In this document: positions 1-51,754 of the stretch, in pieces
Layout: the number at the start of each line of letters is the position of its first letter
Position numbering within the stretch: the first letter of the stretch is position 1
Source of the DNA: Escherichia virus TH30
Sequence record: MT446404.1
Length of the DNA stretch: 51,754 nt
Direction: 5' to 3' (one strand)
Program-made: the position numbers and the translations under genes
The notes under the pieces: model-generated
The model's database searches: none
What the model saw: the letters and a program-made list of their open reading frames with translations, nothing else
What the model was told of the DNA's origin: nothing

Positions 1-427
1 TACGCGACTGGTTGCGTTAATCAAGTGGTTACATGTAGATATTTGTAATCGCGTGTATGCAATGGCGTTAGTTACATAAAATGGCTATCCGGAACAGCTA
101 TAGCTAGATGTAAATAGCGTGTATATCGTGTATATCATTTTTCTCGGAGGGTGCATTAGTGTATGCGTGATTAGATACTGTATAAATAACCATATTAGAA
201 ATTTATAAGAGGAACACTCTATAGAAGTAGTTACACGATATACACAGTAATATATATAATAATAATAATAAGAGTAAAAGGTTGATATATATAGATATTT
301 TAATGTAACTATCGCGTAACTAGGCGTAACAGCGCGTATATCATTTTCCGCGGATGAGATTGTATACATCGAGTTACATCGGTTACATGTATATCGTTGC
401 ATTTACTGCATTATGAGGATAAAATAA
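1..427. repeat. Left copy of exact 427-bp direct terminal repeat; AT-rich, dense in GTTAC/GTAAC and short direct repeats
   Basis: Window start matches 51328 onward; six-frame ORF 85..402 is identical in translation to ORF 51412..51729 (offset 51327). Confidence 0.9.
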
Positions 428-21123: not shown

Positions 21124-21642
21124 TCAAATCTTATCAAGTACGCTTTTCACGGCATCCTCTATGGTTTGCGTGTCATTCACAACATTGCTCACGTTAACTT
21201 CTGCTGCCTTGTCGATACCAATGTCTTTACCTACGAATCCAGCATTGATGAGGTTGGACGCGGCAAGCTGATATTTCTGTTCAATGATTACCGAGTCGAT
21301 GAACTCCATTACCTCAGAGAATCCAGGTGACGCTCGCCAGCTTTGGATCGCACCGGAGGTAACGCCGCAATAAAGCTGGAATCCGTTGAGCGTGAACACT
21401 CGCGGCTTGTGCACAAGGTTTTCAGTTACGACGCCCTGGAAGCTCGCCGTCTCAATGGCCTTGATTGCCTGGTCCTCGGCCCATGAGAAATATTTAACCG
21501 CAAGGTTGAATACAGTCTCAGGCGTCATTGGGTGACGATGGTTAAGGTTGGCAATGTCGCCATACTTTTTGTTGTATAGCTCTTTGAAGTTACCGATTCG
21601 AACCTTCTCGTTCGCGTGACTGGTGAAATTTTCGTCTTTCAT
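21124..21642 (-). CDS. terminase small subunit (172 aa)
   Basis: Position directly upstream of large terminase. Confidence 0.45.
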   Translation of the reverse strand: MKDENFTSHANEKVRIGNFKELYNKKYGDIANLNHRHPMTPETVFNLAVKYFSWAEDQAIKAIETASFQGVVTENLVHKPRVFTLNGFQLYCGVTSGAIQSWRASPGFSEVMEFIDSVIIEQKYQLAASNLINAGFVGKDIGIDKAAEVNVSNVVNDTQTIEDAVKSVLDKI

Positions 21643-27838: not shown

Positions 27839-28034
27839 TGCGGCGCTCCATGTAGTCAGCCATTTTGATAAGGTGCTCGCCCATTGCGCGGACGGTAGCC
27901 GGATCTTGCATCGGGAATGCTCCAGAGTCATCATCAATCACGATTTCGACAGTGACATTATCGACATTGGTCATCGTGTCAATCCAGCAATCGTCATCGT
28001 CCATATCCTGGAAGCGCTTGCGATCTGTGATCAT
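27828..28034 (-). CDS. small acidic protein (68 aa), distant relative of the tandem family
   Basis: C-terminal helix ATVRAMGEHLIKMADYMER resembles the family C-terminus. Confidence 0.35.
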   Translation of the reverse strand: MITDRKRFQDMDDDDCWIDTMTNVDNVTVEIVIDDDSGAFPMQDPATVRAMGEHLIKMADYMERRNEQ

Positions 28035-28255
28035 AAAACCCCCTTCTCAGCGCGGCGGGCCGCTTCCATCAGGTGACATGCCAGTTGGCGCGCCTGGTCA
28101 GGCGTGTAAAGCATGTAACTGCTTGGGTATGACTCATCATGAGGATTGAAGTCAAGTCGTACCTTGAAAGTCACACGATCATTATTGTGAATCTTCACAG
28201 CCTCAATCTCGGCCTGCTCGTTGTAGTCGTCTGCGATGCGTACCTTGGTACTCAT
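28031..28255 (-). CDS. small acidic protein, paralogue family member 4 (74 aa)
   Basis: C-terminus YTPDQARQLACHLMEAARRAEKGVL. Confidence 0.5.
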   Translation of the reverse strand: MSTKVRIADDYNEQAEIEAVKIHNNDRVTFKVRLDFNPHDESYPSSYMLYTPDQARQLACHLMEAARRAEKGVL

Positions 28256-28622: not shown

Positions 28623-28819
28623 TCGATAATCCTCAATAGTTTCTCTTTGCGATGCGGTTCGCCGGACTTATTCAGCCAGTAGCGCGCCTGGGAAAGCTGG
28701 CTGGCATGGGCCACTGTCACCCACCAGAATAATGCTACCCGCTTTTGGACTGCATACCACTTGACCGGATGACCTAAGGCGGTCGTCGTGTCAACCAATA
28801 CGATCCTGAATTTATTCAT
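28619..28819 (-). CDS. hypothetical basic protein (about 66 aa from MNKFRIV)
   Basis: ORF trimmed to the ATG overlapping the upstream stop. Confidence 0.3.
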   Translation of the reverse strand: MNKFRIVLVDTTTALGHPVKWYAVQKRVALFWWVTVAHASQLSQARYWLNKSGEPHRKEKLLRIIE

Positions 28820-29030
28820 CGACTTCTGCCTCCACTTCATCAGCCGCCTTGATGAGTGCCGCCGCCAGTTCACGCGCCTGCTCTGCTGTGTAGGTCATAC
28901 CTGTACCATCCGCCCGAGAATCCGGTAAAAGGTCCAGGTGCACGCGCTTACGCATCTTGCCAAACGGAACCTTGATTACTGAGATTTCTGTTTCCTGATT
29001 CCAGGATGAGTTAACTCGAATATCTCTCAT
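28812..29030 (-). CDS. small acidic protein, paralogue family member 3 (72 aa)
   Basis: C-terminus YTAEQARELAAALIKAADEVEAE. Confidence 0.5.
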   Translation of the reverse strand: MRDIRVNSSWNQETEISVIKVPFGKMRKRVHLDLLPDSRADGTGMTYTAEQARELAAALIKAADEVEAEVDE

Positions 29031-29224
29031 TGCTTTTCCGCCTCTTCCGCTACTTTAATGAGCGCCTCCGCCAACTTACGTGCTTGTTCCGGCGTGTAAT
29101 GAGCTATGGCAAAGCTATCCCCGTCGCTGTCTGTTTCAGTAAGACTTACCACGCCGTCATAATAGATTGAGGTTGACACCTCGGTGCTTACGCCTAAAAA
29201 ATCTTCGAAGATTACAATCTCCAT
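29027..29224 (-). CDS. small acidic protein, paralogue family member 2 (65 aa)
   Basis: C-terminus HYTPEQARKLAEALIKVAEEAEKQ. Confidence 0.5.
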   Translation of the reverse strand: MEIVIFEDFLGVSTEVSTSIYYDGVVSLTETDSDGDSFAIAHYTPEQARKLAEALIKVAEEAEKQ

Positions 29225-29226
29225 AA

Positions 29227-29439
29227 TTATTTCTTCTCCGCTTCATCTGCTGCCAGGATTAACGCTGCCGCTAATTTGCGCGCGTCATCAGGTGTATAGT
29301 GCATCATGCTTACATCGCAATCGTCAGGATCGAAGTCAATGGAGACTACAGCCTTGACTACTCCAGTCCGATTGGTTAGCACGCTAACCTCAGCGGCATC
29401 ACCAACCACATCCTCAATGCGTAAAATTTCCATAATCAT
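29227..29439 (-). CDS. small acidic protein, paralogue family member 1 (70 aa)
   Basis: C-terminus HYTPDDARKLAAALILAADEAEKK. Confidence 0.5.
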   Translation of the reverse strand: MIMEILRIEDVVGDAAEVSVLTNRTGVVKAVVSIDFDPDDCDVSMMHYTPDDARKLAAALILAADEAEKK

Positions 29440-29507: not shown

Positions 29508-30055
29508 TCACCGTTCAGGAGAGCTTTCGCTTTCCGGTAGAACTGGATGGCCTTCTCCACCTCATCGGCATCATAGCCATGGATTGTTGTCTGCGGTGGC
29601 ACGTAGTGAGAACGTCGCGCGTCGGATCGGTATTGGTTGCACCATCTGTACACGCCTCGTTCATCCATTCCCACCAGGGCCGGATGCACATAAATCTTAT
29701 CGCCAATGAGGCAAACAATTCCCGCCTCCTGTAGTGCTGGGATGATGTTATTTGTCAGGTCATGCATGATCCCTTCGCGACCGACGAATGGCTGGACCTT
29801 TCGGATTGCCTCGTATAGAGATCGAATGCCAGCAACTCCCTTCCCATTGCAGCACTGGCGGCTAATCCTGCTCACTACGACGCCGTATTTGTAGCTCAAC
29901 TTGACGCACAGCATCTCTTCGGCGCTGGGCCAGAACTTGAATGATTGACGGTATCCATTGGCATTGATTGCCACACGAAGTGGCGGCAGGTTATCTTGCC
30001 TGGCGACTTCCATCACCTTTTCATCGGTCAATTTATCTTCGTCGAAATTAAACAT
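29504..30055 (-). CDS. 183-aa protein sharing N- and C-terminal segments with the 527-aa P-loop protein at 35589..37172
   Basis: MFNFDEDKL...DNLPPLRVAINANGYRQS and GIRSLYEAIRKVQPF...CLIGDKIYVHP match both ends of the larger protein. Confidence 0.55.
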   Translation of the reverse strand: MFNFDEDKLTDEKVMEVARQDNLPPLRVAINANGYRQSFKFWPSAEEMLCVKLSYKYGVVVSRISRQCCNGKGVAGIRSLYEAIRKVQPFVGREGIMHDLTNNIIPALQEAGIVCLIGDKIYVHPALVGMDERGVYRWCNQYRSDARRSHYVPPQTTIHGYDADEVEKAIQFYRKAKALLNGE

Positions 30056-30591
30056 TAGTTAGTATCCTTAATCATTTCATGGTAACGGGCCAGGGCAATG
30101 AGAGCGCCTTCTTTCTGCTCTCCTTTCAGGTCGATGACGTTTGGTGTGATCTTGAGCAGACGAGCCTTGAACCTTTCAATAGCTGCCGCTTCTTTCTCAA
30201 CATCGGCAGTCTTTCGTTTGGTTGGCTTAAGTGCCCCAGGCTCAAGCTGGATTAACAGGTTCTTATCAGCGCCGTCGCCATCCGCCTTGCGTGCTACAGT
30301 TTCCTCTCCTGACGCCAGCCAGATAAAGCGATGCTTGACGTGCATATCAATATCCCGAAGCTCCTGCATTCTTGCTGCGGTGTTATAGATGTATGAACTT
30401 TTAAGCCCTGCGATCTCACGCCCAGGAGTCATGTACTCCCCCGTCACCTCGTCCAGTATTTCATCTGGATAATCATGACCATTGACCAGGTTGAATATCT
30501 TGCGAACCGGAACTACGCACAGCTTCTTGTCGGACTTAATTGCCTGGCGTACCATCTCGCGAATCACATCACCCAATGTTACCTTATCCAT
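30055..30591 (-). CDS. hypothetical protein (178 aa), first gene of the leftward early block
   Basis: ORF only. Confidence 0.45.
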   Translation of the reverse strand: MDKVTLGDVIREMVRQAIKSDKKLCVVPVRKIFNLVNGHDYPDEILDEVTGEYMTPGREIAGLKSSYIYNTAARMQELRDIDMHVKHRFIWLASGEETVARKADGDGADKNLLIQLEPGALKPTKRKTADVEKEAAAIERFKARLLKITPNVIDLKGEQKEGALIALARYHEMIKDTN

Positions 30592-31109
30592 ACTACCACC
30601 TCATTTGATTGTTGCGTTTAAGTGAGGTCATTATGATGAGAGTTAACGCGTAAGTCAACCGTAATCGCATGTAAAAATCAGGTCGGGAAACATTTCTGCC
30701 ATGTAGGCCTTGCCACACCTGATGTAAGTAGGCGGTATATCGTGTAACGCATCCTGAAAGGTGATTGCCTATATATGGCCTCATTACCCTGGCGGAATGG
30801 TCATCTTATATAGTAGTGGGAGATATTATCAAATTTGATGGAGGTTGCGCCTAGATAGTCGTTACACAGTATACATAGATATATATAATAATAATAATAT
30901 AGATAAATGGTTGTTATATATAGATATTTTATTGTAACTAATGCGTAAAACAGCGTATGCCGCGTATGCTCATGCCAAATCGTTACACGGCATACATTGG
31001 CTATACATGCGTTACGCACAATTACGCGTATGCGCTGGAAAACGTGTGGCGGGAAAATCCTACCAGGCGATCAGGGATCAGATCTCACCCCATCATTCCC
31101 CCCTCCAAT

Positions 31110-31215
31110 GAATCATTGCTCAATTCGCAACAATCGAAAACACCATTGCAAACGATGCAATATTGCTATATGTGCAATAGTGAAGTGAATCATTGCAATA
31201 GCTGCAACAATCCAT
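31110..31215. repeat. array of at least six ATTGC/GCAAT half-sites including palindromes GCAATATTGC and ATTGCAAT
   Basis: Read directly from sequence. Confidence 0.6.
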
Positions 31216-31226
31216 AAATCGAACGA

Positions 31227-31243
31227 ATAGCACTTTTTGCTAA
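31227..31243 (+). promoter_or_regulatory. conserved 17-bp motif ATAGCACTTTTTGCTAA upstream of first rightward gene
   Basis: Followed by ATGACCGATCAGGAGTGA, TATTAT and CATCGAAACGA (31277-31287). Confidence 0.55.
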
Positions 31244-31305
31244 TGACCGATCAGGAGTGATTCGCTATTATTACTTCATCGAAACGAGACATAGAGAGCA
31301 AGCAA

Positions 31306-31632
31306 ATGAAATACGAAAATCGCGGCCAGGACATCATCAAAATCGAAAACGGCGTTGAATATGTGATGGTAGCTTGCAAGGTTAACGGTATGGATTCATT
31401 CGTTTGGGAAGAAATCAAGCCGGAAGTTAAGAGCCTGACCTGTGTAGCCCAGCCTGACGCAGAACGCGATATTTTCACTCGCTACAGCGCTTATGAAATC
31501 GTTCGTGAAACTGCTTGCTTCTGGTGGATTAAGCCTAACGCTCAGTACCGTCACCCGCGCAAAATCAGCAAGCGCACCATGCGTGAAGCTGGTATCAAAG
31601 AAGCATACGCGGCAGAGTTCGACATCGCATAA
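31306..31632 (+). CDS. hypothetical protein (108 aa)
   Basis: ORF with RBS. Confidence 0.45.
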   Translation: MKYENRGQDIIKIENGVEYVMVACKVNGMDSFVWEEIKPEVKSLTCVAQPDAERDIFTRYSAYEIVRETACFWWIKPNAQYRHPRKISKRTMREAGIKEAYAAEFDIA

Positions 31633-34008: not shown

Positions 34009-34248
34009 ATGAAAGTAAAATGCACTAACGTAATCACCAGCACCGACAAGAAAGTTTTGACACCGTTCGTAAAAGGCTCTGTATACTACGCTGAGCCGCT
34101 AATCATTAACGGCAAGGTAATCCCGAACGAATGGTTAATTAATGGCGCCGAGCGACCGCACAAGCACGATACGGGGTGGATTGCCATTGCTGCGTGGCCC
34201 AGCGGATTTACCATCATCGGCATCGCAACGTTTGACGAGGTGAAATAA
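34009..34248 (+). CDS. hypothetical protein (79 aa)
   Basis: ORF with RBS GGTGAGA. Confidence 0.4.
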   Translation: MKVKCTNVITSTDKKVLTPFVKGSVYYAEPLIINGKVIPNEWLINGAERPHKHDTGWIAIAAWPSGFTIIGIATFDEVK

Positions 34249-34406
34249 TGCTCAAGCCATCCGATTTGAATTACTACGACAACGACACGATCGCGAAACT
34301 CTCAGGTCAAGGATGGTATCCATGGAGCACCAGCGCTCAGGTTGAAGATTTGCAAAGCAGTTACGAAATCACACAGAAAGCAATTGAGAAGGCAAAGAAG
34401 AAATGA
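34248..34406 (+). CDS. possible 52-aa protein (MLKPSDLNYYDNDTIAKLSGQGWYPW...)
   Basis: Below ORF-track cut-off; fills gap with TAATG and ATGA overlaps. Confidence 0.3.
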   Translation: MLKPSDLNYYDNDTIAKLSGQGWYPWSTSAQVEDLQSSYEITQKAIEKAKKK

Positions 34407-35086
34407 AAAAGGTAATTTACTGCTTGTTCGACGGTTCCGGTATCGCTGGTCTACCATGGGCGGAAAATGGTCACACCGTCTACTGCTTCAACGCGGACTC
34501 TGGTAATCATGGAGAATATCACATCAAGATGCAGCATGAGAATATCCACTACGTCAACATGTGGATTGACAAGGATTTCATCACCAAGTGCGAATTGCTC
34601 GGCCTGCCTCCGGCGCAAATGGTTATCGGCTTCCCTGATTGCACGCTGTTCTCTCAGTCAGGATCGCAGCATGAGCGCGGGGAAGATGAACTGGCGTACG
34701 CCCTGGCAAATGCGAAGCTCGTCGAAGAAGTCGGTAATCACTTCCAGGCACCATGGATGGTTGAGAATCCGGTAGGTAAGCTGTCAAGCCTGTGGCGTAA
34801 GCCTGACTTCTACTTCAATCCGTATGAGTACGGCGGGCTAATGAAGGCTCACGATCTACCGTACCACGAAAAAATGCCTAAATACGACGGCTACACGAAG
34901 AAAACTTGCATCTGGCATGGCAACGGATTCGTTGAGCCGGTTAAGAAGCCTGGCCCGATTAACATTGGCTTCTTTTGGGGATGGAAATTCCTCGGAGGGA
35001 AGTCTGCTAAGACAAAGCAGTTGCGCTCACTGACTCCACGTGGATTTGCGCGCGCCGTATACCTGGCGAATCATTTAACCAAATAG
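34403..35086 (+). CDS. compact DNA cytosine-C5 methyltransferase-like protein (227 aa)
   Basis: LFDGSGIAG (motif I FxGxG-like), GFPDCTLFSQSG (motif IV PC-like with Cys), ENPVGKL (motif VI ENV-like). Confidence 0.5.
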   Translation: MKKVIYCLFDGSGIAGLPWAENGHTVYCFNADSGNHGEYHIKMQHENIHYVNMWIDKDFITKCELLGLPPAQMVIGFPDCTLFSQSGSQHERGEDELAYALANAKLVEEVGNHFQAPWMVENPVGKLSSLWRKPDFYFNPYEYGGLMKAHDLPYHEKMPKYDGYTKKTCIWHGNGFVEPVKKPGPINIGFFWGWKFLGGKSAKTKQLRSLTPRGFARAVYLANHLTK

Positions 35087-35099
35087 CACTAATTGCTAA
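35083..35099 (+). promoter_or_regulatory. conserved 17-bp motif ATAGCACTAATTGCTAA, upstream stop TAG embedded
   Basis: Followed by terminator-like hairpin and CATCTCATCGAAACGAAAC. Confidence 0.55.
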
Positions 35100-35100
35100 A

Positions 35101-35118
35101 GCCCTTCGGGGCTTTTCC
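35101..35118 (+). terminator. hairpin AGCCC-ttcg-GGGCT plus T-run
   Basis: Read from sequence. Confidence 0.5.
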
Positions 35119-35164
35119 TGTATATTCATCTCATCGAAACGAAACACACTAAAGGAAAATAATC

Positions 35165-35518
35165 ATGGCTACCACACTTACGAAAAACTTCGTCACCTCC
35201 GACAACCGCCTTCTGAAAGCTCGCGTGAAAGATGAAGTAGAGCAAATCAAGGTTGATGGCAAGTGGGTTAACCTTGACATCAAGGGCCGTTACATCAAGA
35301 CTAAAACCCTTTACGTGACTAAGATTAACCACAAGTCTTCCGTTAAAAAAGACTTCACGCAAGGTAAGCGCTATCAGGTTGACATGCACGCCGGACTCGG
35401 TAGTAACGCTGGTTACATCTTCGATAACGACGGCGTAGCATGGCAGTTGTACCGCTCGGATGACGTCGGATTCGAAACAGTATGCGGAACATACCGATTT
35501 GAGGCTGCGTATAAATAA
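35165..35518 (+). CDS. hypothetical protein (117 aa)
   Basis: ORF with RBS AAGGAAA. Confidence 0.45.
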   Translation: MATTLTKNFVTSDNRLLKARVKDEVEQIKVDGKWVNLDIKGRYIKTKTLYVTKINHKSSVKKDFTQGKRYQVDMHAGLGSNAGYIFDNDGVAWQLYRSDDVGFETVCGTYRFEAAYK

Positions 35519-35588
35519 GTAGCATTTTTTGGCAAGCGGTTTTACCATAGGTGCGTTAACATTAGCGCACCAACTAAGGAGTTTTTTA

Positions 35589-37172
35589 ATGTTTGATTTT
35601 AACGAAGATAAACTGTCAATCGATCAGGTAATGGCTGTAGCCGCTGCCGACAACCTGCCGCCTCTGCGCGTTGCCATTAATGCGAACGGGTACAGGCAGA
35701 GCCAGTCATTCTGGAAAGCCCCAACCGAAATTGACTCAGGCGGTGACAAATATCCGGTAATCTCACTTGGTAACGATTATGATGTCGTTGGTAAACTTTC
35801 AAGCAACGCCGCCCGTTCTGTTCAGTTCCCTGAGTCGTCCGCATACATGCATTTCCTAGGATGCATATCAGCCGCCATGCTGGGCCGATTTACGGTTGAG
35901 TATCACGGAACACAACAGCCTACCGCGCTGTACGTCGTAACCAGTCAGCCACCATCGACAGGTAAGTCAGCCATCAACTCACTTTCGCTGGCCCCGATGA
36001 TCGCAGAAACTGAGCGACTAAACGAAATCCGAAAGCGTGACCGCAAGAAGATTATGGCTAAGCTTTCCGCTCTATCCAAGGAGATGAAGCAGGAGAAATC
36101 ACCGTCCGACATGGCGGCGCTGTTTGAGGAAAAAGAAGAACTGGAGGAAAAACTGGAACGGCTTTGTGACATCGTGTTCCCCGTATCCGATACCACGCCG
36201 GAAGGTCTTGCGCGAATCAACAACCGACAGGGCAACTTCTCTGTGATCTCGGATGAAGCAACGAGCGTAAACTCACTGTTAGGCATGACCTATGGTGACG
36301 GCTCAAAGAAAACGAACAGCGAGCTTGTGCTTAAGGCATGGGATGCTGGTAACGTATCTATCGCGCGTGCGAACGCAGACAATAACATGAGCTTTATTGC
36401 GATGGGGTGCATATCTGTAATTGCACAGGATGAAACAATCAACGCGATCATGAACGCCGGCGCGCGCGGTATCGGTGTATCCGAGCGTTTCTTGCTTGTG
36501 CGAGAGAAGTCATTCCTTGGCGAGCGTGTATTCGTCGATGAGAAAGGTGAATCAACATACGAGCCGATTGATGGCGGACTCAAGGCGGACTACTTCCGTT
36601 TGGTTCATGAGATCATGAGCGAACACGAAGTAAACCTGACAGTAAGCACGTCGGCGATGAAATATCTCAACCGTGCTCGTCAGGATATGGAGCCTCACCT
36701 TGCTGACGGCGGGAAGTATTCACACACAATGCTGCGCGGCGCGCTTGGTAAGTTCGATAAGCAGGCAATCAGGATTGCTGCGGTTCTTCACACTGTGCGT
36801 AACTGGTTCAATCCAAACGGCGGCAGCCCGCAGAAGTCCAGAGAGATTGAACTTGATACAATGCAAGAAGCCGTGATCATGTTCCAGGAACTCAGTAAAA
36901 CTTATCTGTCATCTGCCAACGCTGCTGGTCACGCTGGCGACCATGCGGAGATGAACAAGCTGATTGACATACTGATCAAGCAAGGCAAGAACGGGAAAGG
37001 CGTTGTAGGTGTCCGATCCCTATATGAAGCGGCGCGTAAGGTTAAGCCATTTGAGGGCCAGGCTGGCGTAATGACTCGCATCAAAGACCACCTGATCCCT
37101 ATGCTGGATGAGAAAAACTATACGTGCCTTATTGGTGATAAAATTTACATTAATCCGCGGCTGCTGGGGTAA
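35589..37172 (+). CDS. P-loop NTPase of unknown function (527 aa from ATG at 35589), possibly replication-associated
   Basis: AGGAG RBS 8 nt before ATG 35589; Walker A-like QPPSTGKSA; termini shared with 29504..30055. Confidence 0.5.
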   Translation: MFDFNEDKLSIDQVMAVAAADNLPPLRVAINANGYRQSQSFWKAPTEIDSGGDKYPVISLGNDYDVVGKLSSNAARSVQFPESSAYMHFLGCISAAMLGRFTVEYHGTQQPTALYVVTSQPPSTGKSAINSLSLAPMIAETERLNEIRKRDRKKIMAKLSALSKEMKQEKSPSDMAALFEEKEELEEKLERLCDIVFPVSDTTPEGLARINNRQGNFSVISDEATSVNSLLGMTYGDGSKKTNSELVLKAWDAGNVSIARANADNNMSFIAMGCISVIAQDETINAIMNAGARGIGVSERFLLVREKSFLGERVFVDEKGESTYEPIDGGLKADYFRLVHEIMSEHEVNLTVSTSAMKYLNRARQDMEPHLADGGKYSHTMLRGALGKFDKQAIRIAAVLHTVRNWFNPNGGSPQKSREIELDTMQEAVIMFQELSKTYLSSANAAGHAGDHAEMNKLIDILIKQGKNGKGVVGVRSLYEAARKVKPFEGQAGVMTRIKDHLIPMLDEKNYTCLIGDKIYINPRLLG

Positions 37173-38895: not shown

Positions 38896-39069
38896 TTAGT
38901 CTTCTATAATGAATTCCACCAAAGCACCATCAATCGGCGCAAAAATCCACGTCATATCGTCACCATAAATCTTGTAGTATCCGTCACCCTGATACTCACC
39001 GCTGTATGGACTGTTGACAGTGAAAGGAAGTGTCTTAGATGTATTCTTAATGCAAAACAATTTAACCAT
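38896..39069 (-). CDS. possible 57-aa protein (MVKLFCIKNTSKTLPF...)
   Basis: Below ORF-track cut-off; AGAGGA RBS 7 nt upstream. Confidence 0.35.
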   Translation of the reverse strand: MVKLFCIKNTSKTLPFTVNSPYSGEYQGDGYYKIYGDDMTWIFAPIDGALVEFIIED

Positions 39070-46107: not shown

Positions 46108-46581
46108 ATGAATGCAACTGATAAGCGTGCTCTTAACGGCAATAACGGAACTATCCGCACAGAAGATAAGAAGCAGCGTAAGCGACCGTCAGGTTACTAT
46201 GTTCTCAAGGATGAAGTAAAGGCCGGATTAAGAGCGCGACTTGATATTGTGTTTGAGTTCTACGGCAGCAAGGCGAATATGGCGAAGCAATTAAAGGTTA
46301 CTCGCCAGGCCGTTGAAGAATGGTTTAAACGTGGAATGATGTCGGCCCGTGGCGCTCAACTGGCGCACAACCGATACAAGCGAACTGGCGAAGGGTTCCG
46401 CGCTACATTCTGCCGACCGGATCTGCAATTCGACGGGAACGGAAAACCTCTGACTCTGAGGTGTAAAAAACGTCACATGCTTCGCGTCGTAACCGAGGCT
46501 GAACTAGCCACCAAGCCAGAATGCCGCTCATGGCGAAAAATCAAAGCAGCAAATGAAGCAGCACGAAAAGCTAAAGAATGA
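46108..46581 (+). CDS. basic HTH-domain DNA-binding protein (157 aa), candidate regulator
   Basis: HTH-like segment MAKQLKVTRQAVEEWFKRG. Confidence 0.5.
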   Translation: MNATDKRALNGNNGTIRTEDKKQRKRPSGYYVLKDEVKAGLRARLDIVFEFYGSKANMAKQLKVTRQAVEEWFKRGMMSARGAQLAHNRYKRTGEGFRATFCRPDLQFDGNGKPLTLRCKKRHMLRVVTEAELATKPECRSWRKIKAANEAARKAKE

Positions 46582-47673: not shown

Positions 47674-48993
47674 ATGGCAACTTATGATGAAGGAACCGCA
47701 TCACTAGCTGCGGACGGTACTGTAACTGGTGTTGGTACGTCATGGAGAAAGCCGCTTACACTTATTCGTGTTGGCGCGACCATGATATTCAATACATCCC
47801 CAATAAGTATCGTCACGATAGCTGAGGTTTTAAGTGATACAAGTATTAGGGCTTTCAATGAAAAAGGGTTTACTGCTCCGGCTGGAACGCAGTACTTCAT
47901 CCTGGCTCACGATGGAATTACCGTGGAGGGGCTAGCGCAAAACGTCGCTGAAACTCTTAGGTATTATCAATCTCAAAATTGGGTTCTTGCCGATGAGAAT
48001 GGAAATGTAAGGATAGAAGATGGCGGTACTGGTGCAAGCGACGCGGCTGGCGCGCGCAGTAAGTTAGGTTTAGGCTCGGTGGCAACGATGAGCAATGTAC
48101 CATTAGCAAATGGTGGTACAGGTGCTACGGATGCTGCTGGTGCACGTAATAACCTGGAGCTTGGTCAGCTTGCAACGGAAGATGTTGCTAGCATAAACAA
48201 CGGTGGGACTGGTGCAACCAGCGCAGAAGGTGCACGTAATAACCTGGAGCTTGGATCTGCTTCCACATTGAATGTCGGGGGTAACAGTGGAAACGCTATG
48301 AGGGTTGGTGATTTCGGATTAGGAAGGCCAGACGGTGCTATGGTTTTTAATACCACATCTCAAGATGTGCTTCTTGCTGGTTTGGATCAATATGGATTAA
48401 CTGTATTCAGGAACAACCAACAAATTGCAGCGCCGTGGGATATCTGGAACTATTCATCAAACCTATTCTTTAGGGCTGGCGATACTTACAGTATGTTGAG
48501 CATCCCCTTTGAACAATCAGGTAAGGTTAAGGTTTTCGGCGGGGCTGCTGGATCTGGATGGAAGACAGGTCGCACACTACTCGATAGCACAATCACAACT
48601 GTTGACTCGAACGGATTTATCAAACAAGCGTCACCGATTGTCAAGGTTTTTGGTGATGGTAAGTATGAGGTGAACGAAGAATCAGAAGGGGCTATAGTTG
48701 AACGAGTTTCTGTAGGTGTTTACAGGATTTCAGGCGTACTAGGCCTTAATTCAGATGCAGCGTGGGGGGGTGTTAACGGCGGATTTGAGATACCACTTGA
48801 TATTAACAAGCAAGCAAGGGTGTGGATTGACTACAAGGTTGAGCCTGAGGGATCTATAATCCTTAAAACGTATCACCGAACTTACGAATCATCTCCTTCA
48901 TTTGCAACAAACAAGATTGATGGTTTTAATAATGGAGATCCGATAGATATACCATCTGACGCATTCATTTCTGTTCGTGTCAATATGCCATAA
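47674..48993 (+). CDS. tail fibre-like protein with three GGTGA(S/T)..AGAR..L(G/E)LG repeats (439 aa)
   Basis: Repeats between about 48018 and 48290 including an exact 26-bp duplication. Confidence 0.55.
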   Translation: MATYDEGTASLAADGTVTGVGTSWRKPLTLIRVGATMIFNTSPISIVTIAEVLSDTSIRAFNEKGFTAPAGTQYFILAHDGITVEGLAQNVAETLRYYQSQNWVLADENGNVRIEDGGTGASDAAGARSKLGLGSVATMSNVPLANGGTGATDAAGARNNLELGQLATEDVASINNGGTGATSAEGARNNLELGSASTLNVGGNSGNAMRVGDFGLGRPDGAMVFNTTSQDVLLAGLDQYGLTVFRNNQQIAAPWDIWNYSSNLFFRAGDTYSMLSIPFEQSGKVKVFGGAAGSGWKTGRTLLDSTITTVDSNGFIKQASPIVKVFGDGKYEVNEESEGAIVERVSVGVYRISGVLGLNSDAAWGGVNGGFEIPLDINKQARVWIDYKVEPEGSIILKTYHRTYESSPSFATNKIDGFNNGDPIDIPSDAFISVRVNMP

Positions 48994-49516: not shown

Positions 49517-50173
49517 TTAGAATTGCTCGATGGATTCAGATTGTACAGGCTCGGACGGTGCATTTGCAACCTTGTCTTCAACCTTTTGCACATCTGCCTT
49601 TTTCGCTGGCTGGAATCCGCGAGCGCTACCGATACTCAATTCAGCCTTACGCTTCTGCAAGTGGTCTTCTGCAATCTTCCATTCCGCCGCGCTGAGTGAA
49701 CCTTTCGCGCTCTTATAGATCACCTGGAGGGCTTCCAGTTTTTCGCAGTTGGTGATCAGTTTTTTGTAGTCTGCCGCCGTGCGCTTCGCGATTTCTGCGT
49801 CGTCATCGCTCTGAGTGATTCCAAGCGCTGCGCATAATGCATAACGGCGACCGTATGAGGTTGTAGAGCCGTAAGCCTGAGCGCTAATCTTCTCGATCGG
49901 CATGTTGTACTGGAACGCAAGCCACTCGCCGGAACTATGAAGGATGAGTGTTTCAATGTGCATTACCTTCTCGGTTGACGTGTCCAGGTTTGACTGGATA
50001 ACCATAAGGTCATGCTCTTTTAGCGCTGGCTCTACGGCCTCCAGAACGTCCGTCAGGTTTGAATAATGGCTTTTCAGGTGAGTGTTGAAGCCTGATTTTT
50101 TTGCGATGGCAAACTGCTTTTTAGCTGCAATTAGAGCGGCTGAAACATTCGAAAACTTCTCTGATGTACGCAT
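49517..50173 (-). CDS. erf: Erf-family single-strand annealing protein (218 aa)
   Basis: N-terminal pattern LKSHYSNLTDVLEAVEPALKEHDL resembles Erf core. Confidence 0.55.
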   Translation of the reverse strand: MRTSEKFSNVSAALIAAKKQFAIAKKSGFNTHLKSHYSNLTDVLEAVEPALKEHDLMVIQSNLDTSTEKVMHIETLILHSSGEWLAFQYNMPIEKISAQAYGSTTSYGRRYALCAALGITQSDDDAEIAKRTAADYKKLITNCEKLEALQVIYKSAKGSLSAAEWKIAEDHLQKRKAELSIGSARGFQPAKKADVQKVEDKVANAPSEPVQSESIEQF

Positions 50174-51327: not shown

Positions 51328-51754
51328 TACGCGACTGGTTGCGTTAATCAAGTGGTTACATGTAGATATTTGTAATCGCGTGTATGCAATGGCGTTAGTT
51401 ACATAAAATGGCTATCCGGAACAGCTATAGCTAGATGTAAATAGCGTGTATATCGTGTATATCATTTTTCTCGGAGGGTGCATTAGTGTATGCGTGATTA
51501 GATACTGTATAAATAACCATATTAGAAATTTATAAGAGGAACACTCTATAGAAGTAGTTACACGATATACACAGTAATATATATAATAATAATAATAAGA
51601 GTAAAAGGTTGATATATATAGATATTTTAATGTAACTATCGCGTAACTAGGCGTAACAGCGCGTATATCATTTTCCGCGGATGAGATTGTATACATCGAG
51701 TTACATCGGTTACATGTATATCGTTGCATTTACTGCATTATGAGGATAAAATAA
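51328..51754. repeat. Right copy of exact 427-bp direct terminal repeat
   Basis: Same sequence as 1-427 running to the last base of the window. Confidence 0.9.

What the first reader, a model, noticed from the sequence alone, without database searches (positions are those of the whole stretch)
31110..31215. Iteron-like array of ATTGC/GCAAT half-sites in the divergent control region
At least six copies within about 100 bp, including perfect palindromes GCAATATTGC and ATTGCAAT, lie just upstream of the first rightward early promoter cassette. This is typical of an operator array or a replication origin.
Basis: seen in the sequence. Interest (0 to 1): 0.6.

Follow-up and report, generated by a model that had tools for sequence, protein, structure and literature searches.

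The report
Four-operator array in T1-like phage
The ATTGC/GCAAT cluster is a real, conserved set of four 17-bp palindromic protein-binding sites in the non-coding hub of a T1-like coliphage; it is probably bound by the phage's own Cro-like protein and lies about 30-55 bp from where relatives start DNA packaging, but what it does is still unproven.

Summary
Seven ATTGC/GCAAT pentamers at 31115-31199 form four 17-bp dyads, ATTGC-N7-GCAAY, at 31115, 31145, 31162 and 31192. Spacing is 30/17/30 bp, and the array is unique in this circular T1-like (Drexlerviridae) genome. About 130 phage records carry the array with identical geometry. Half-sites are four to five times better conserved than the 7-bp centres, with no compensatory changes. 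This is the footprint of a dimeric DNA-binding protein, not a hairpin.

The array co-varies, against the genome-wide phylogeny, with a Cro-fold HTH protein (46108-46581, T1 gp23 family) encoded beside the primase gene. It does not co-vary with the small terminase. It overlaps no promoter, but sits a fixed 18 bp upstream of the repeat element of the first rightward promoter.

Published PhageTerm packaging starts in relatives MSK and TR1 map about 38 and 29 bp left of dyad 1. The T1 and Rtp records begin inside the array.

Best reading: an operator array for the Cro-like protein in the early-control/pac hub. Whether it controls transcription, replication or packaging is unresolved. Moderate interest.

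The parts
31115..31131 (.). Dyad 1, ATTGCtcaattcGCAAC
   Evidence: Present at the same register in ETEP102, p111, MSK, Sd1, TR1, Rtp and ESCO41, and in T1 as ATTGCattctaaGCAAC.
31145..31161 (.). Dyad 2, ATTGCaaacgatGCAAT (perfect)
   Evidence: The 7-bp centre differs between phages (aaacgat, atctgaa, atcagat, attcgat) while the half-sites stay the same.
31162..31178 (.). Dyad 3, ATTGCtatatgtGCAAT (perfect); it abuts dyad 2
   Evidence: The Rtp GenBank record is split inside this dyad.
31192..31208 (.). Dyad 4, ATTGCaatagctGCAAC
   Evidence: With its flanks it is a direct repeat of dyad 1 (TGAATCATTGC..GCAACAATC, family D1). The ESCO41 and XT34 records start at its right edge.
31060..31090 (-). 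Predicted packaging-start (pac cleavage) zone, with packaging running leftward. It is inferred from position only. It contains GGGATCAGATCT (two GATC sites) followed by a pyrimidine-rich tract.
   Evidence: PhageTerm start of MSK at record 36,862 is 38 bp left of dyad 1. TR1 packaging site at record 3,615 is about 29 bp left. The SU57 record end is 55 bp left. The sequence of this zone in the window differs from MSK and TR1, so the location is an extrapolation.
31227..31271 (+). First rightward promoter cassette: the family-wide repeat ATAGCACnnnTTGnTAA, then ATGACC-17-TATTAT
   Evidence: The repeat is described for TLS in PMC11447400. The distance from the start of dyad 1 to the repeat is 112 bp in the six other four-dyad phages scanned, and the same in the window by coordinates.
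46108..46581 (+). Candidate binding protein: a 157-aa Cro-fold HTH protein (T1 gp23 / Rtp52 'transcriptional regulator' family). Its end overlaps the ORF listed for primase (from 46553).
   Evidence: Weak Pfam hits to YdaS and P22_Cro. AlphaFold2 model with pLDDT 84. Best PDB matches are N15, Xfaso1 and P22 Cro. Co-variation with the array.
30840..30975 (.). AT-rich element of the same hub, with back-to-back promoter-like sites. It is duplicated at 200-345. Context only, not part of the array.
21127..21642 (-). Small terminase (P22 gp3 family), considered as a binder and disfavoured

Best explanation
The cluster is an array of four 17-bp dyad-symmetric operators (ATTGC-N7-GCAAY). Each is recognised by a dimer of the phage's own Cro-fold helix-turn-helix protein, encoded at 46108-46581 beside the primase gene (T1 gp23 family).

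The array sits in the roughly 700-bp non-coding hub that separates the leftward and rightward early operons. It begins 18 bp upstream of the repeat element of the first rightward promoter, and about 30-55 bp to the right of where relatives cut concatemers to start headful packaging.

The most likely action is Cro-like control of rightward early transcription. This could act on the adjacent promoter from upstream, or block transcripts entering from the AT-rich hub promoter at 30861-30889. Occupancy may also affect the neighbouring pac or origin functions.

Shown here: the anatomy, the conservation footprint, uniqueness in the genome, the fixed geometry, co-variation with the HTH protein, and the Cro fold of that protein.

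Inferred: that this protein binds the array, and what binding does.
For: 1. Four equal dyads, unique in the genome.

2. In 11 phages the array aligns without gaps. Mean pairwise difference per column is 0.050 in half-sites, 0.240 in the 7-bp centres, 0.176 in linkers and 0.45 in the left flank. Permutation p is below 1e-5 (half-sites against centres) and 0.001 (half-sites against linkers).

3. All departures from pairing are one-sided, with no compensatory changes in 20 pairs. The selection is therefore on sequence, not on a hairpin.

4. Co-variation against the phylogeny. Window against Rtp and TR1: most proteins are 45-67% identical (TerS 56/66, TerL 49/48, capsid 52/53), but the HTH protein is 87/82% and the array about 90%. 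Rtp against ACG-M12: TerS 89, portal 94, capsid 93 and tail 94-96%, but the HTH protein is 71% and ACG-M12 has no array.

5. Database scale. 128 records carry the HTH protein at 80% identity or more; among the sampled rows identity drops from 81% straight to 68%. About 130 records carry the array. All 10 sampled records with a high-identity regulator are array-positive. 392 Klebsiella phage records carry a regulator homologue (about 59-62% identical in the sampled rows), yet only 2 Klebsiella records hit the array query.

6. In the protein family the HTH helices are the most variable part while both flanks are nearly invariant, as expected if DNA-binding specificity has diversified.

8. TLS, which has a different HTH class (51 records at 90% or more, all others below 60%), has at the equivalent spot two copies of a different palindrome, AGACCGATTGGTCT, 9 bp upstream of its first right-arm repeat.

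9. The spacing between array and promoter repeat is invariant.
Against: No binding data exist.

The dyads overlap no -35 or -10 element on either strand (and inspection), unlike classical Cro/CI operators.

The candidate's gene is 15 kb away, and there is no dyad in its own upstream region.

T1 keeps two dyads although its HTH protein is only about 52% identical with a different recognition helix. In T1 the dyads lie more than 100 bp from the promoter repeat.

The co-variation rests on eight fully compared genomes plus database counts, not on a full cross-table. Co-inheritance of separate cassettes for other reasons is possible.

Other right-arm genes are also unusually similar between the window and Rtp-like phages: the DUF3987 helicase at 89-92%, the 117-aa protein and DUF7244.
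Confidence: 0.5

Rival explanations
1. The array is the recognition part of the pac site. Terminase, or an accessory protein, binds the dyads and cuts the concatemer nearby to start leftward headful packaging.
For: - PhageTerm start in MSK (36,862, forward) lies 38 bp left of dyad 1. The packaging site in TR1 (3,615) lies about 29 bp left. The two fall 8 bp apart within the same conserved sequence.
- The SU57 end, chosen at a step in read coverage, is 55 bp left of dyad 1.
- T1 record position 1, the start of its annotated 2.8-kb terminal repeat, is the first base of dyad 2. The Rtp record is split inside dyad 3.
- The cut-zone sequence differs between this phage and the Rtp-like phages while the array is conserved. 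That fits recognition at the array with cutting at a distance.
- The pac sequence of T1-like phages is unidentified in the papers I could read.
- From memory: P1 pac and SPP1 pacL/pacR are also repeat arrays flanking a cut.
Against: - The array does not track the small terminase. Rtp and this phage share the array with 56% identical TerS and different putative HTH helices. ACG-M12 has an 89% identical TerS to Rtp but neither the array nor the cut-zone sequence.
- Ring-shaped TerS oligomers would be expected to bind direct repeats, not inverted ones (established knowledge).
- Given that pac was already known to lie in this 700-bp non-coding region, falling within about 40 bp of the array has a chance probability near 0.25 (my estimate).
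- With leftward packaging from about 31080, the array lies on the end that is not packaged.
- I could not establish how T1 and Rtp position 1 were chosen.
Confidence: 0.2
2. The array is the replication origin. The HTH protein is an initiator that binds four dyad 'iterons', as lambda O does, and recruits the primase and helicase.
For: - Four dyad sites of fixed geometry, unique in the genome.
- The candidate binder lies in the replication cluster, its end overlapping the ORF listed for primase and divergent from a helicase gene.
- It has a variable DNA-reading part and nearly invariant N- and C-terminal parts that could contact conserved partners.
- The DUF3987 helicase is also unusually similar (89-92%) among array-bearing phages.
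- That lambda ori has four dyad-symmetric O-binding repeats is established knowledge.
Against: - The nearest strongly AT-rich DNA is about 180 bp away.
- ACG-M12 and LF82-10 lack any comparable dyad cluster anywhere in the genome, yet have the protein, and LF82-10 has an 88% identical helicase.
- A more origin-like structure lies next door and is duplicated in the genome: an AT-rich element flanked by lineage-specific direct repeats.
- GC skew follows transcription only.
- The protein's fold match is to Cro, and I found no match to an initiator family.
Confidence: 0.17
3. The array is a binding site for a host factor, or a structural DNA or RNA element (cruciform or hairpins), unrelated to the phage HTH protein.
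For: TGCAA/TTGCA pentamers are also enriched here, 7 in 90 bp. From memory they resemble CytR half-sites. The dyads could form 5-bp hairpins.
Against: - There are no compensatory changes, and one-sided mutations are tolerated.
- No Rfam match was found.
- The distribution among phages that infect the same host follows a phage gene class, which a host factor would not explain.
Confidence: 0.08

Closest known systems
Lambdoid Cro/CI operator clusters (OR/OL of lambda, P22 and N15)
   Same: Several adjacent dyad-symmetric sites of about 17 bp, with conserved half-sites and free centres. A Cro-fold protein is present in the genome. The sites lie between divergent early operons. Protein and site fall into discrete specificity classes.
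   Different: The sites overlap no promoter. The protein's gene is 15 kb away, in the replication cluster. The protein carries extra conserved N- and C-terminal parts. The phage is virulent and has no CI partner. The spacing of 30/17/30 bp is unlike OR.
Lambda ori (four O-protein binding repeats)
   Same: Four dyad-symmetric repeats. The candidate binder lies next to replication genes. The DNA-binding part is variable.
   Different: The array is not inside or beside the binder's gene. There is no adjacent AT-rich unwinding stretch. The array is absent from related phages. The binder is not O-like.
pac sites with flanking repeat arrays (P1 pac, SPP1 pacL/pacC/pacR) and lambda cosB
   Same: A repeat array within tens of bp of the packaging cut. 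It is located in a non-coding hub.
   Different: There is no co-variation with the small terminase. The repeats are inverted. The site is 9.5 kb from the terminase genes.
21-nt intergenic repeat of TLS and T1-like phages (aaATAGCACnnnTTGnTAAAA, PMC11447400)
   Same: It lies in the same control region and is adjacent to the array. Its function is also unassigned.
   Different: The sequence is different. There are 20 dispersed copies, each oriented with the downstream gene and sitting just upstream of a -35 element, and it is conserved across the whole family including Klebsiella phages. The dyad array is a single locus found in a subset of phages.

Membership tests
Cro/CI-type operator array | Sites are dyad-symmetric, about 14-18 bp, with conserved half-sites about one helical turn apart | tested here: met
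   Four ATTGC-N7-GCAAY sites with half-site centres 12 bp apart. Half-site columns diverge 0.05 against 0.24 for the centres.
Cro/CI-type operator array | A cognate Cro/CI-fold HTH protein is encoded by the same genome | tested here: met
   The 46108-46581 model matches N15, Xfaso1 and P22 Cro. It co-varies with the array.
Cro/CI-type operator array | Operators overlap the promoters they control | tested here: not met
   No promoter-like site on either strand lies within 31100-31215. The nearest -35 is at 31243.
Cro/CI-type operator array | The protein binds the sites specifically | not testable with these tools
   Needs EMSA, footprinting or ChIP.
Iteron-type replication origin (lambda-like) | Repeated initiator sites directly adjoin an AT-rich unwinding element | tested here: not met
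   The flanks of the array are not AT-rich. The AT-rich element at 30875-30935 is about 180 bp away.
Iteron-type replication origin (lambda-like) | Present, in some cognate form, in all relatives that use the same replication proteins | tested here: not met
   ACG-M12 and LF82-10 have no clustered dyads at all.
Iteron-type replication origin (lambda-like) | Replication starts here | not testable with these tools
   Needs marker-frequency or nascent-strand mapping.
pac site (terminase recognition plus cleavage) | The first packaging cut maps at or next to the element | tested here: inconclusive
   Met in relatives MSK, TR1 and SU57 from published PhageTerm positions that I mapped onto their sequences. 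There are no reads for this phage, and its cut-zone sequence differs.
pac site (terminase recognition plus cleavage) | The element co-varies with the small terminase that reads it | tested here: not met
   The same array occurs with 56% identical TerS. An 89% identical TerS occurs without the array.
T1-like 21-nt intergenic repeat | Matches ATAGCACnnnTTGnTAA, oriented with the downstream gene | tested here: not met
   The 20 copies are listed. None lies within 31110-31215, and the nearest starts at 31227.

The most novel reading that the evidence does not exclude
In T1-like phages a dedicated Cro-fold protein, not the small terminase, marks the packaging-initiation or replication hub by binding this four-dyad array. 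Swapping the protein and array together would then set which genomes are packaged or replicated. This would finally give a sequence-level pac or origin determinant for the classic phage T1 group.
Probability: 0.15. Interest if true: 0.7.

Novelty: new member of a known kind. Interest (0 to 1): 0.45.

Why it matters
T1 is one of the original T phages, yet its control region, pac site and origin have no sequence-level description in the papers I could read. In those papers pac is either 'not identified' or assigned by resemblance to P22.

This work gives a precise and testable pairing. Four defined 17-bp sites are matched to one 157-aa Cro-fold protein. At least two discrete specificity classes are visible across about 820 phage records, and the array lies within about 30-55 bp of the packaging start mapped in relatives.

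If confirmed, it would be a handle for engineering or disabling T1-like phages, which are notorious laboratory and fermenter contaminants. It would also help interpret their mosaic evolution.

If the protein does not bind, the array remains an unexplained, strongly conserved element.

Tried and rejected
- **Small terminase as the binder.** Disfavoured by the lack of co-variation.
- **DUF7174 protein (30055-30591), the conserved first leftward gene.** The AlphaFold2 model (pLDDT 76) has no significant PDB match, so it gives no lead.
- **RNA or hairpin reading.** Rfam gave only a chance-level hit to a eukaryotic snoRNA family (E = 0.06, far below that family's gathering score), and there was no compensatory change in 20 pairs.
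- **Promoters inside the array.** None was found.
- **GC skew as an origin marker.** It follows gene orientation only.
- **IMG/VR scans.** The protein-based scan found 2 loci and the pattern scan 5, too few for statistics. I used the GenBank phage collection instead.
- **T1 (Roberts 2004) and Rtp (Wietzorrek 2006) genome papers.** They are not in the library, so I could not learn how position 1 of those records was chosen.
- **PHROGs and Pfam on 26 neighbouring ORFs.** They gave no other DNA-binding candidate.
- **DUF3987 helicase as the co-varying partner.** Rejected as the primary partner, because LF82-10 (88%) and ACG-M12 (80-82%) keep it without the array.
- **TLS-class check.** It is consistent with the pairing but confounded by close relatedness, so I count it only as weak support.

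Full report
**1. What is there**

The window is a complete, circularly closed assembly of a T1-like (Drexlerviridae) coliphage. Bases 1-427 repeat at 51328-51754. The closest records are TH21, 50EP, P818 and ETEP102.

The finding lies in a non-coding hub of about 700 bp (30592-31305). To its left are leftward genes, the first being a DUF7174 protein at 30055-30591. To its right are rightward genes, the first at 31306.

ATTGC or GCAAT occurs 7 times in 31115-31199. No other 90-bp stretch has more than 3, and the pentamer is not enriched genome-wide. The copies pair into four 17-bp dyads, ATTGC-N7-GCAA[T/C], at 31115, 31145, 31162 and 31192, a spacing of 30/17/30 bp. A scan of the whole genome for clustered dyads sharing one half-site returns only this locus.

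**2. Layout of the hub, from left to right**

- An AT-rich element (30840-30975) carries back-to-back promoter-like sites, including a rightward GTTACA-17-TATAAT at 30861-30889. It is duplicated at 82% identity in the genome's other divergent intergenic region, at 200-345.
- Next come short direct repeats, including CGCGTATGC in three copies.
- A GATC-containing palindrome and a pyrimidine-rich tract follow (31068-31105).
- Then comes the four-dyad array.
- 18 bp further on is the repeat ATAGCACTTTTTGCTAA (31227) and a promoter, ATGACC-17-TATTAT. This repeat has 20 oriented copies in the genome. It is the 21-nt repeat described for TLS, whose function is unknown (PMC11447400).

**3. Conservation**

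The array proper matches 135 phage records, almost all Escherichia or Shigella Drexlerviridae. A few of these match only the adjacent repeat. The hundreds of Klebsiella phage hits to the larger query share only the promoter repeat.

In 11 phages from several subfamilies the 94-bp array aligns without a single gap. In the six other four-dyad phages scanned, and in the window by coordinates, the promoter repeat starts exactly 112 bp after dyad 1.

| Column class | Mean pairwise difference |
|---|---|
| Half-sites | 0.050 |
| 7-bp centres | 0.240 |
| Inter-dyad linkers | 0.176 |
| Left flank | 0.45 |

Permutation tests give p below 1e-5 for half-sites against centres and p = 0.001 for half-sites against linkers.

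When the dyads are treated as hairpins, no pair changes on both sides, and every departure simply breaks a pair. Rfam gave only a chance-level hit to a eukaryotic snoRNA family. This is the signature of a dimeric protein reading two 5-bp half-sites 12 bp apart.

**4. Variants in other lineages**

- T1 and a T1-like contig keep only dyads 1 and 2, mostly as GTTGC. These are followed by GGAATAAT/ATTATTCC repeats.
- LF82-10 and Phc have only the GGAATAAT-type repeats.
- ACG-M12 has nothing comparable.
- TLS has two abutting copies of a different palindrome, AGACCGATTGGTCT, 9 bp upstream of its first right-arm repeat. This is the only dyad cluster in its genome.

**5. Physical genome ends**

T1-like phages package by the headful mechanism from a pac site that has been mapped only roughly. 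The SU57 paper says pac was 'not identified'. The TLS paper assigned AGATTT by resemblance to P22. The MSK paper cites an earlier proposal of ATATA repeats.

I mapped the published coordinates onto the sequences:

- MSK's PhageTerm start (36,862, forward) is 38 bp left of dyad 1.
- TR1's packaging site (3,615) is about 29 bp left. It lies 8 bp from the MSK position within the same conserved sequence, AACTTGTATGGTAGTCCATC.
- The SU57 record end, chosen at a step in read coverage, is 55 bp left.
- T1's record, whose bases 1-2800 are annotated as the terminal repeat, begins with the first base of dyad 2.
- The Rtp record is split inside dyad 3.
- The Rogue1, ESCO41 and XT34 records also begin at dyad edges.

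All orientations imply packaging leftward in window coordinates.

So pac cleavage lies beside the array in relatives. In this phage the cut-zone sequence is different and T1-like, so the predicted zone of 31060-31090 is an extrapolation.

**6. Who binds the array**

The small terminase (21127-21642, P22 gp3 family) does not follow the array. Rtp and this phage share the array, yet their TerS proteins are 56% identical and differ in the putative HTH helix. ACG-M12 has an 89% identical TerS to Rtp but lacks both the array and the cut-zone sequence.

A 157-aa HTH protein (46108-46581) does follow it. This protein is annotated 'transcriptional regulator' in T1 (gp23), Rtp (Rtp52) and TLS. Its end overlaps the ORF listed for primase.

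| Comparison | Most proteins | HTH protein | Array |
|---|---|---|---|
| Window against Rtp / TR1 | 45-67% | 87 / 82% | about 90% nucleotide identity |
| Rtp against ACG-M12 | 82-98% for most | 71% | absent from ACG-M12 |

Sources are for the first row, and for the second.

At database scale, 824 records carry the protein and 128 of them are at 80% identity or more. Among the sampled rows identity drops from 81% straight to 68%. This count compares with about 130 array-bearing records. All 10 sampled high-identity records are array-positive. 392 Klebsiella phage records carry a homologue, about 59-62% identical in the sampled rows, yet only 2 Klebsiella records hit the array query.

The TLS class of the protein is equally discrete: 51 records at 90% or more, and all others below 60%. 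It coincides with the TLS-type palindromes, although that set is a single genus.

There are caveats:

- T1 keeps two dyads with a protein only 52% identical.
- The DUF3987 helicase and a few small right-arm genes are also unusually similar between this phage and the Rtp-like phages. The helicase, however, stays at 80-88% in phages without the array.

**7. What the array does**

None of this is shown. There are three readings.

*Transcription.* The binder has a Cro fold. The array sits at a fixed distance upstream of the first rightward promoter, and downstream of a strong rightward promoter-like site in the AT-rich element. TLS has its own palindromes at the same promoter-proximal spot. Against this, no dyad overlaps a core promoter, and in T1 the dyads lie more than 100 bp from the promoter.

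*Origin.* There are four dyad sites, and the binder is encoded among replication genes. Against this, there is no adjacent AT-rich DNA, the array is absent from relatives, and a more origin-like element lies next door.

*Packaging.* The cuts map within 29-55 bp. Against this, the array does not co-vary with TerS, and the proximity is only weakly significant once pac is known to lie in this hub.

I rank the readings as follows:

| Reading | Confidence |
|---|---|
| Operator array for the Cro-like protein, acting mainly on early transcription | 0.5 |
| pac recognition element | 0.2 |
| Replication origin | 0.17 |
| Host factor or structural element | 0.08 |

The first figure is for the binding claim. 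My confidence in the transcriptional role specifically is lower.

**8. Comparison and novelty**

The array works like a lambdoid operator cluster but fails one defining feature of that family, overlap with promoters. Its protein gene is also remote from it. It fails two features of a lambda-type origin and one feature of a terminase-read pac site.

None of the papers I could read mentions the array. The TLS paper states that no iterons exist in that genome, which is true for TLS. I could not read the T1 and Rtp genome papers.

I class it as a new member of a known kind, namely a phage HTH protein with its operator array. Interest is moderate, because it offers the first sequence-level, testable handle on the control/pac hub of the T1 group.

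Noticed in passing
window 1-427 and 51328-51754: The two ends of the window are identical. The sequence is a circularly closed assembly of a genome of about 51,327 bp, and the repeat is not a biological terminal repeat at this position.
   Followed up: yes
window 200-345 and 30840-30975: An AT-rich element of about 130 bp (ATATATAATAATAATAATA...GGTTG.TATATATAGATATTTTA.TGTAACTA) occurs in both divergent intergenic regions at 82% identity. It has back-to-back promoter-like sites and is flanked by short lineage-specific direct repeats: CGCGTATGC x3 and CGTTACAC here, CGATTAACA x3 in T1, and CGTGAACA x2 in TLS. From memory, the reverse complement of the TLS repeat resembles the P4 origin iteron TGTTCACC. 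This could be the real origin, or an ori/crr-like pair.
   Followed up: partly
window, 20 sites, e.g. 31227, 31633, 32810, 33180, 35083 (+) and 46095, 29507, 28338 (-): The family-wide repeat ATAGCACnnnTTGnTAA sits just upstream of a -35 element, and each copy points toward the gene it precedes. This is the 21-nt repeat reported for TLS with unknown function. Its position fits an UP-element-like promoter module.
   Followed up: partly
L017 (T1) 48750-48836, L021 (LF82-10) 1110-1210, L020 (Phc) 1140-1200: In place of dyads 3 and 4, these phages carry 4-6 copies of GGAATAAT/ATTATTCC (also GGAATATTCC) directly upstream of the first right-arm promoter repeat. This is a second, different site array, with no candidate binder.
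   Followed up: no
L018 (TLS) 49792-49819: Two abutting 14-bp palindromes, AGACCGATTGGTCT, form the only dyad cluster in the TLS genome. They sit at the spot equivalent to the ATTGC array and are shared by the roughly 50 Tlsvirus records that also share the TLS-class HTH protein.
   Followed up: partly
window 34009-37172, 38896-39069, 46108-46581: These are islands of 70-92% protein identity to Rtp-like phages, in a genome otherwise 45-67% identical to them. They comprise the DUF3987 helicase, a 117-aa and a 79-aa protein, DUF7244 and the HTH protein. This is mosaic exchange of right-arm and replication cassettes, possibly through recombination at the shared promoter repeats.
   Followed up: partly
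window 46108-46581: The HTH protein family has near-invariant segments outside the Cro-like core: DKRxxNGNNG..RKRPxGYYVLKDEV at the N-terminus, and FCRPDLxFDxNGKPL..RC with two invariant cysteines at the C-terminus. Neither has a structural match, which suggests a conserved partner or a second activity.
   Followed up: partly
window 28031-28255, 28812-29030, 29027-29224, 29227-29439 (all - strand): Four small paralogous early proteins (65-74 aa) share a C-terminal motif, YTP(E/D)(Q/D)AR(K/E/Q)LA..L..AA.(E/R)AE. Three of them lie in tandem. Their function is unknown.
   Followed up: no
The ORF is almost certainly spurious. Several other records also call small ORFs or a 'membrane protein' over the array.
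   Followed up: yes
window 31068-31091: CGATCAGGGATCAGATCT contains three GATC sites and the palindrome AGATCT, inside the predicted packaging-start zone. Similar motifs occur in LF82-10 and T1. The phage encodes a Dam-type methylase, so methylation-sensitive cutting, as at P1 pac, is conceivable.
   Followed up: no
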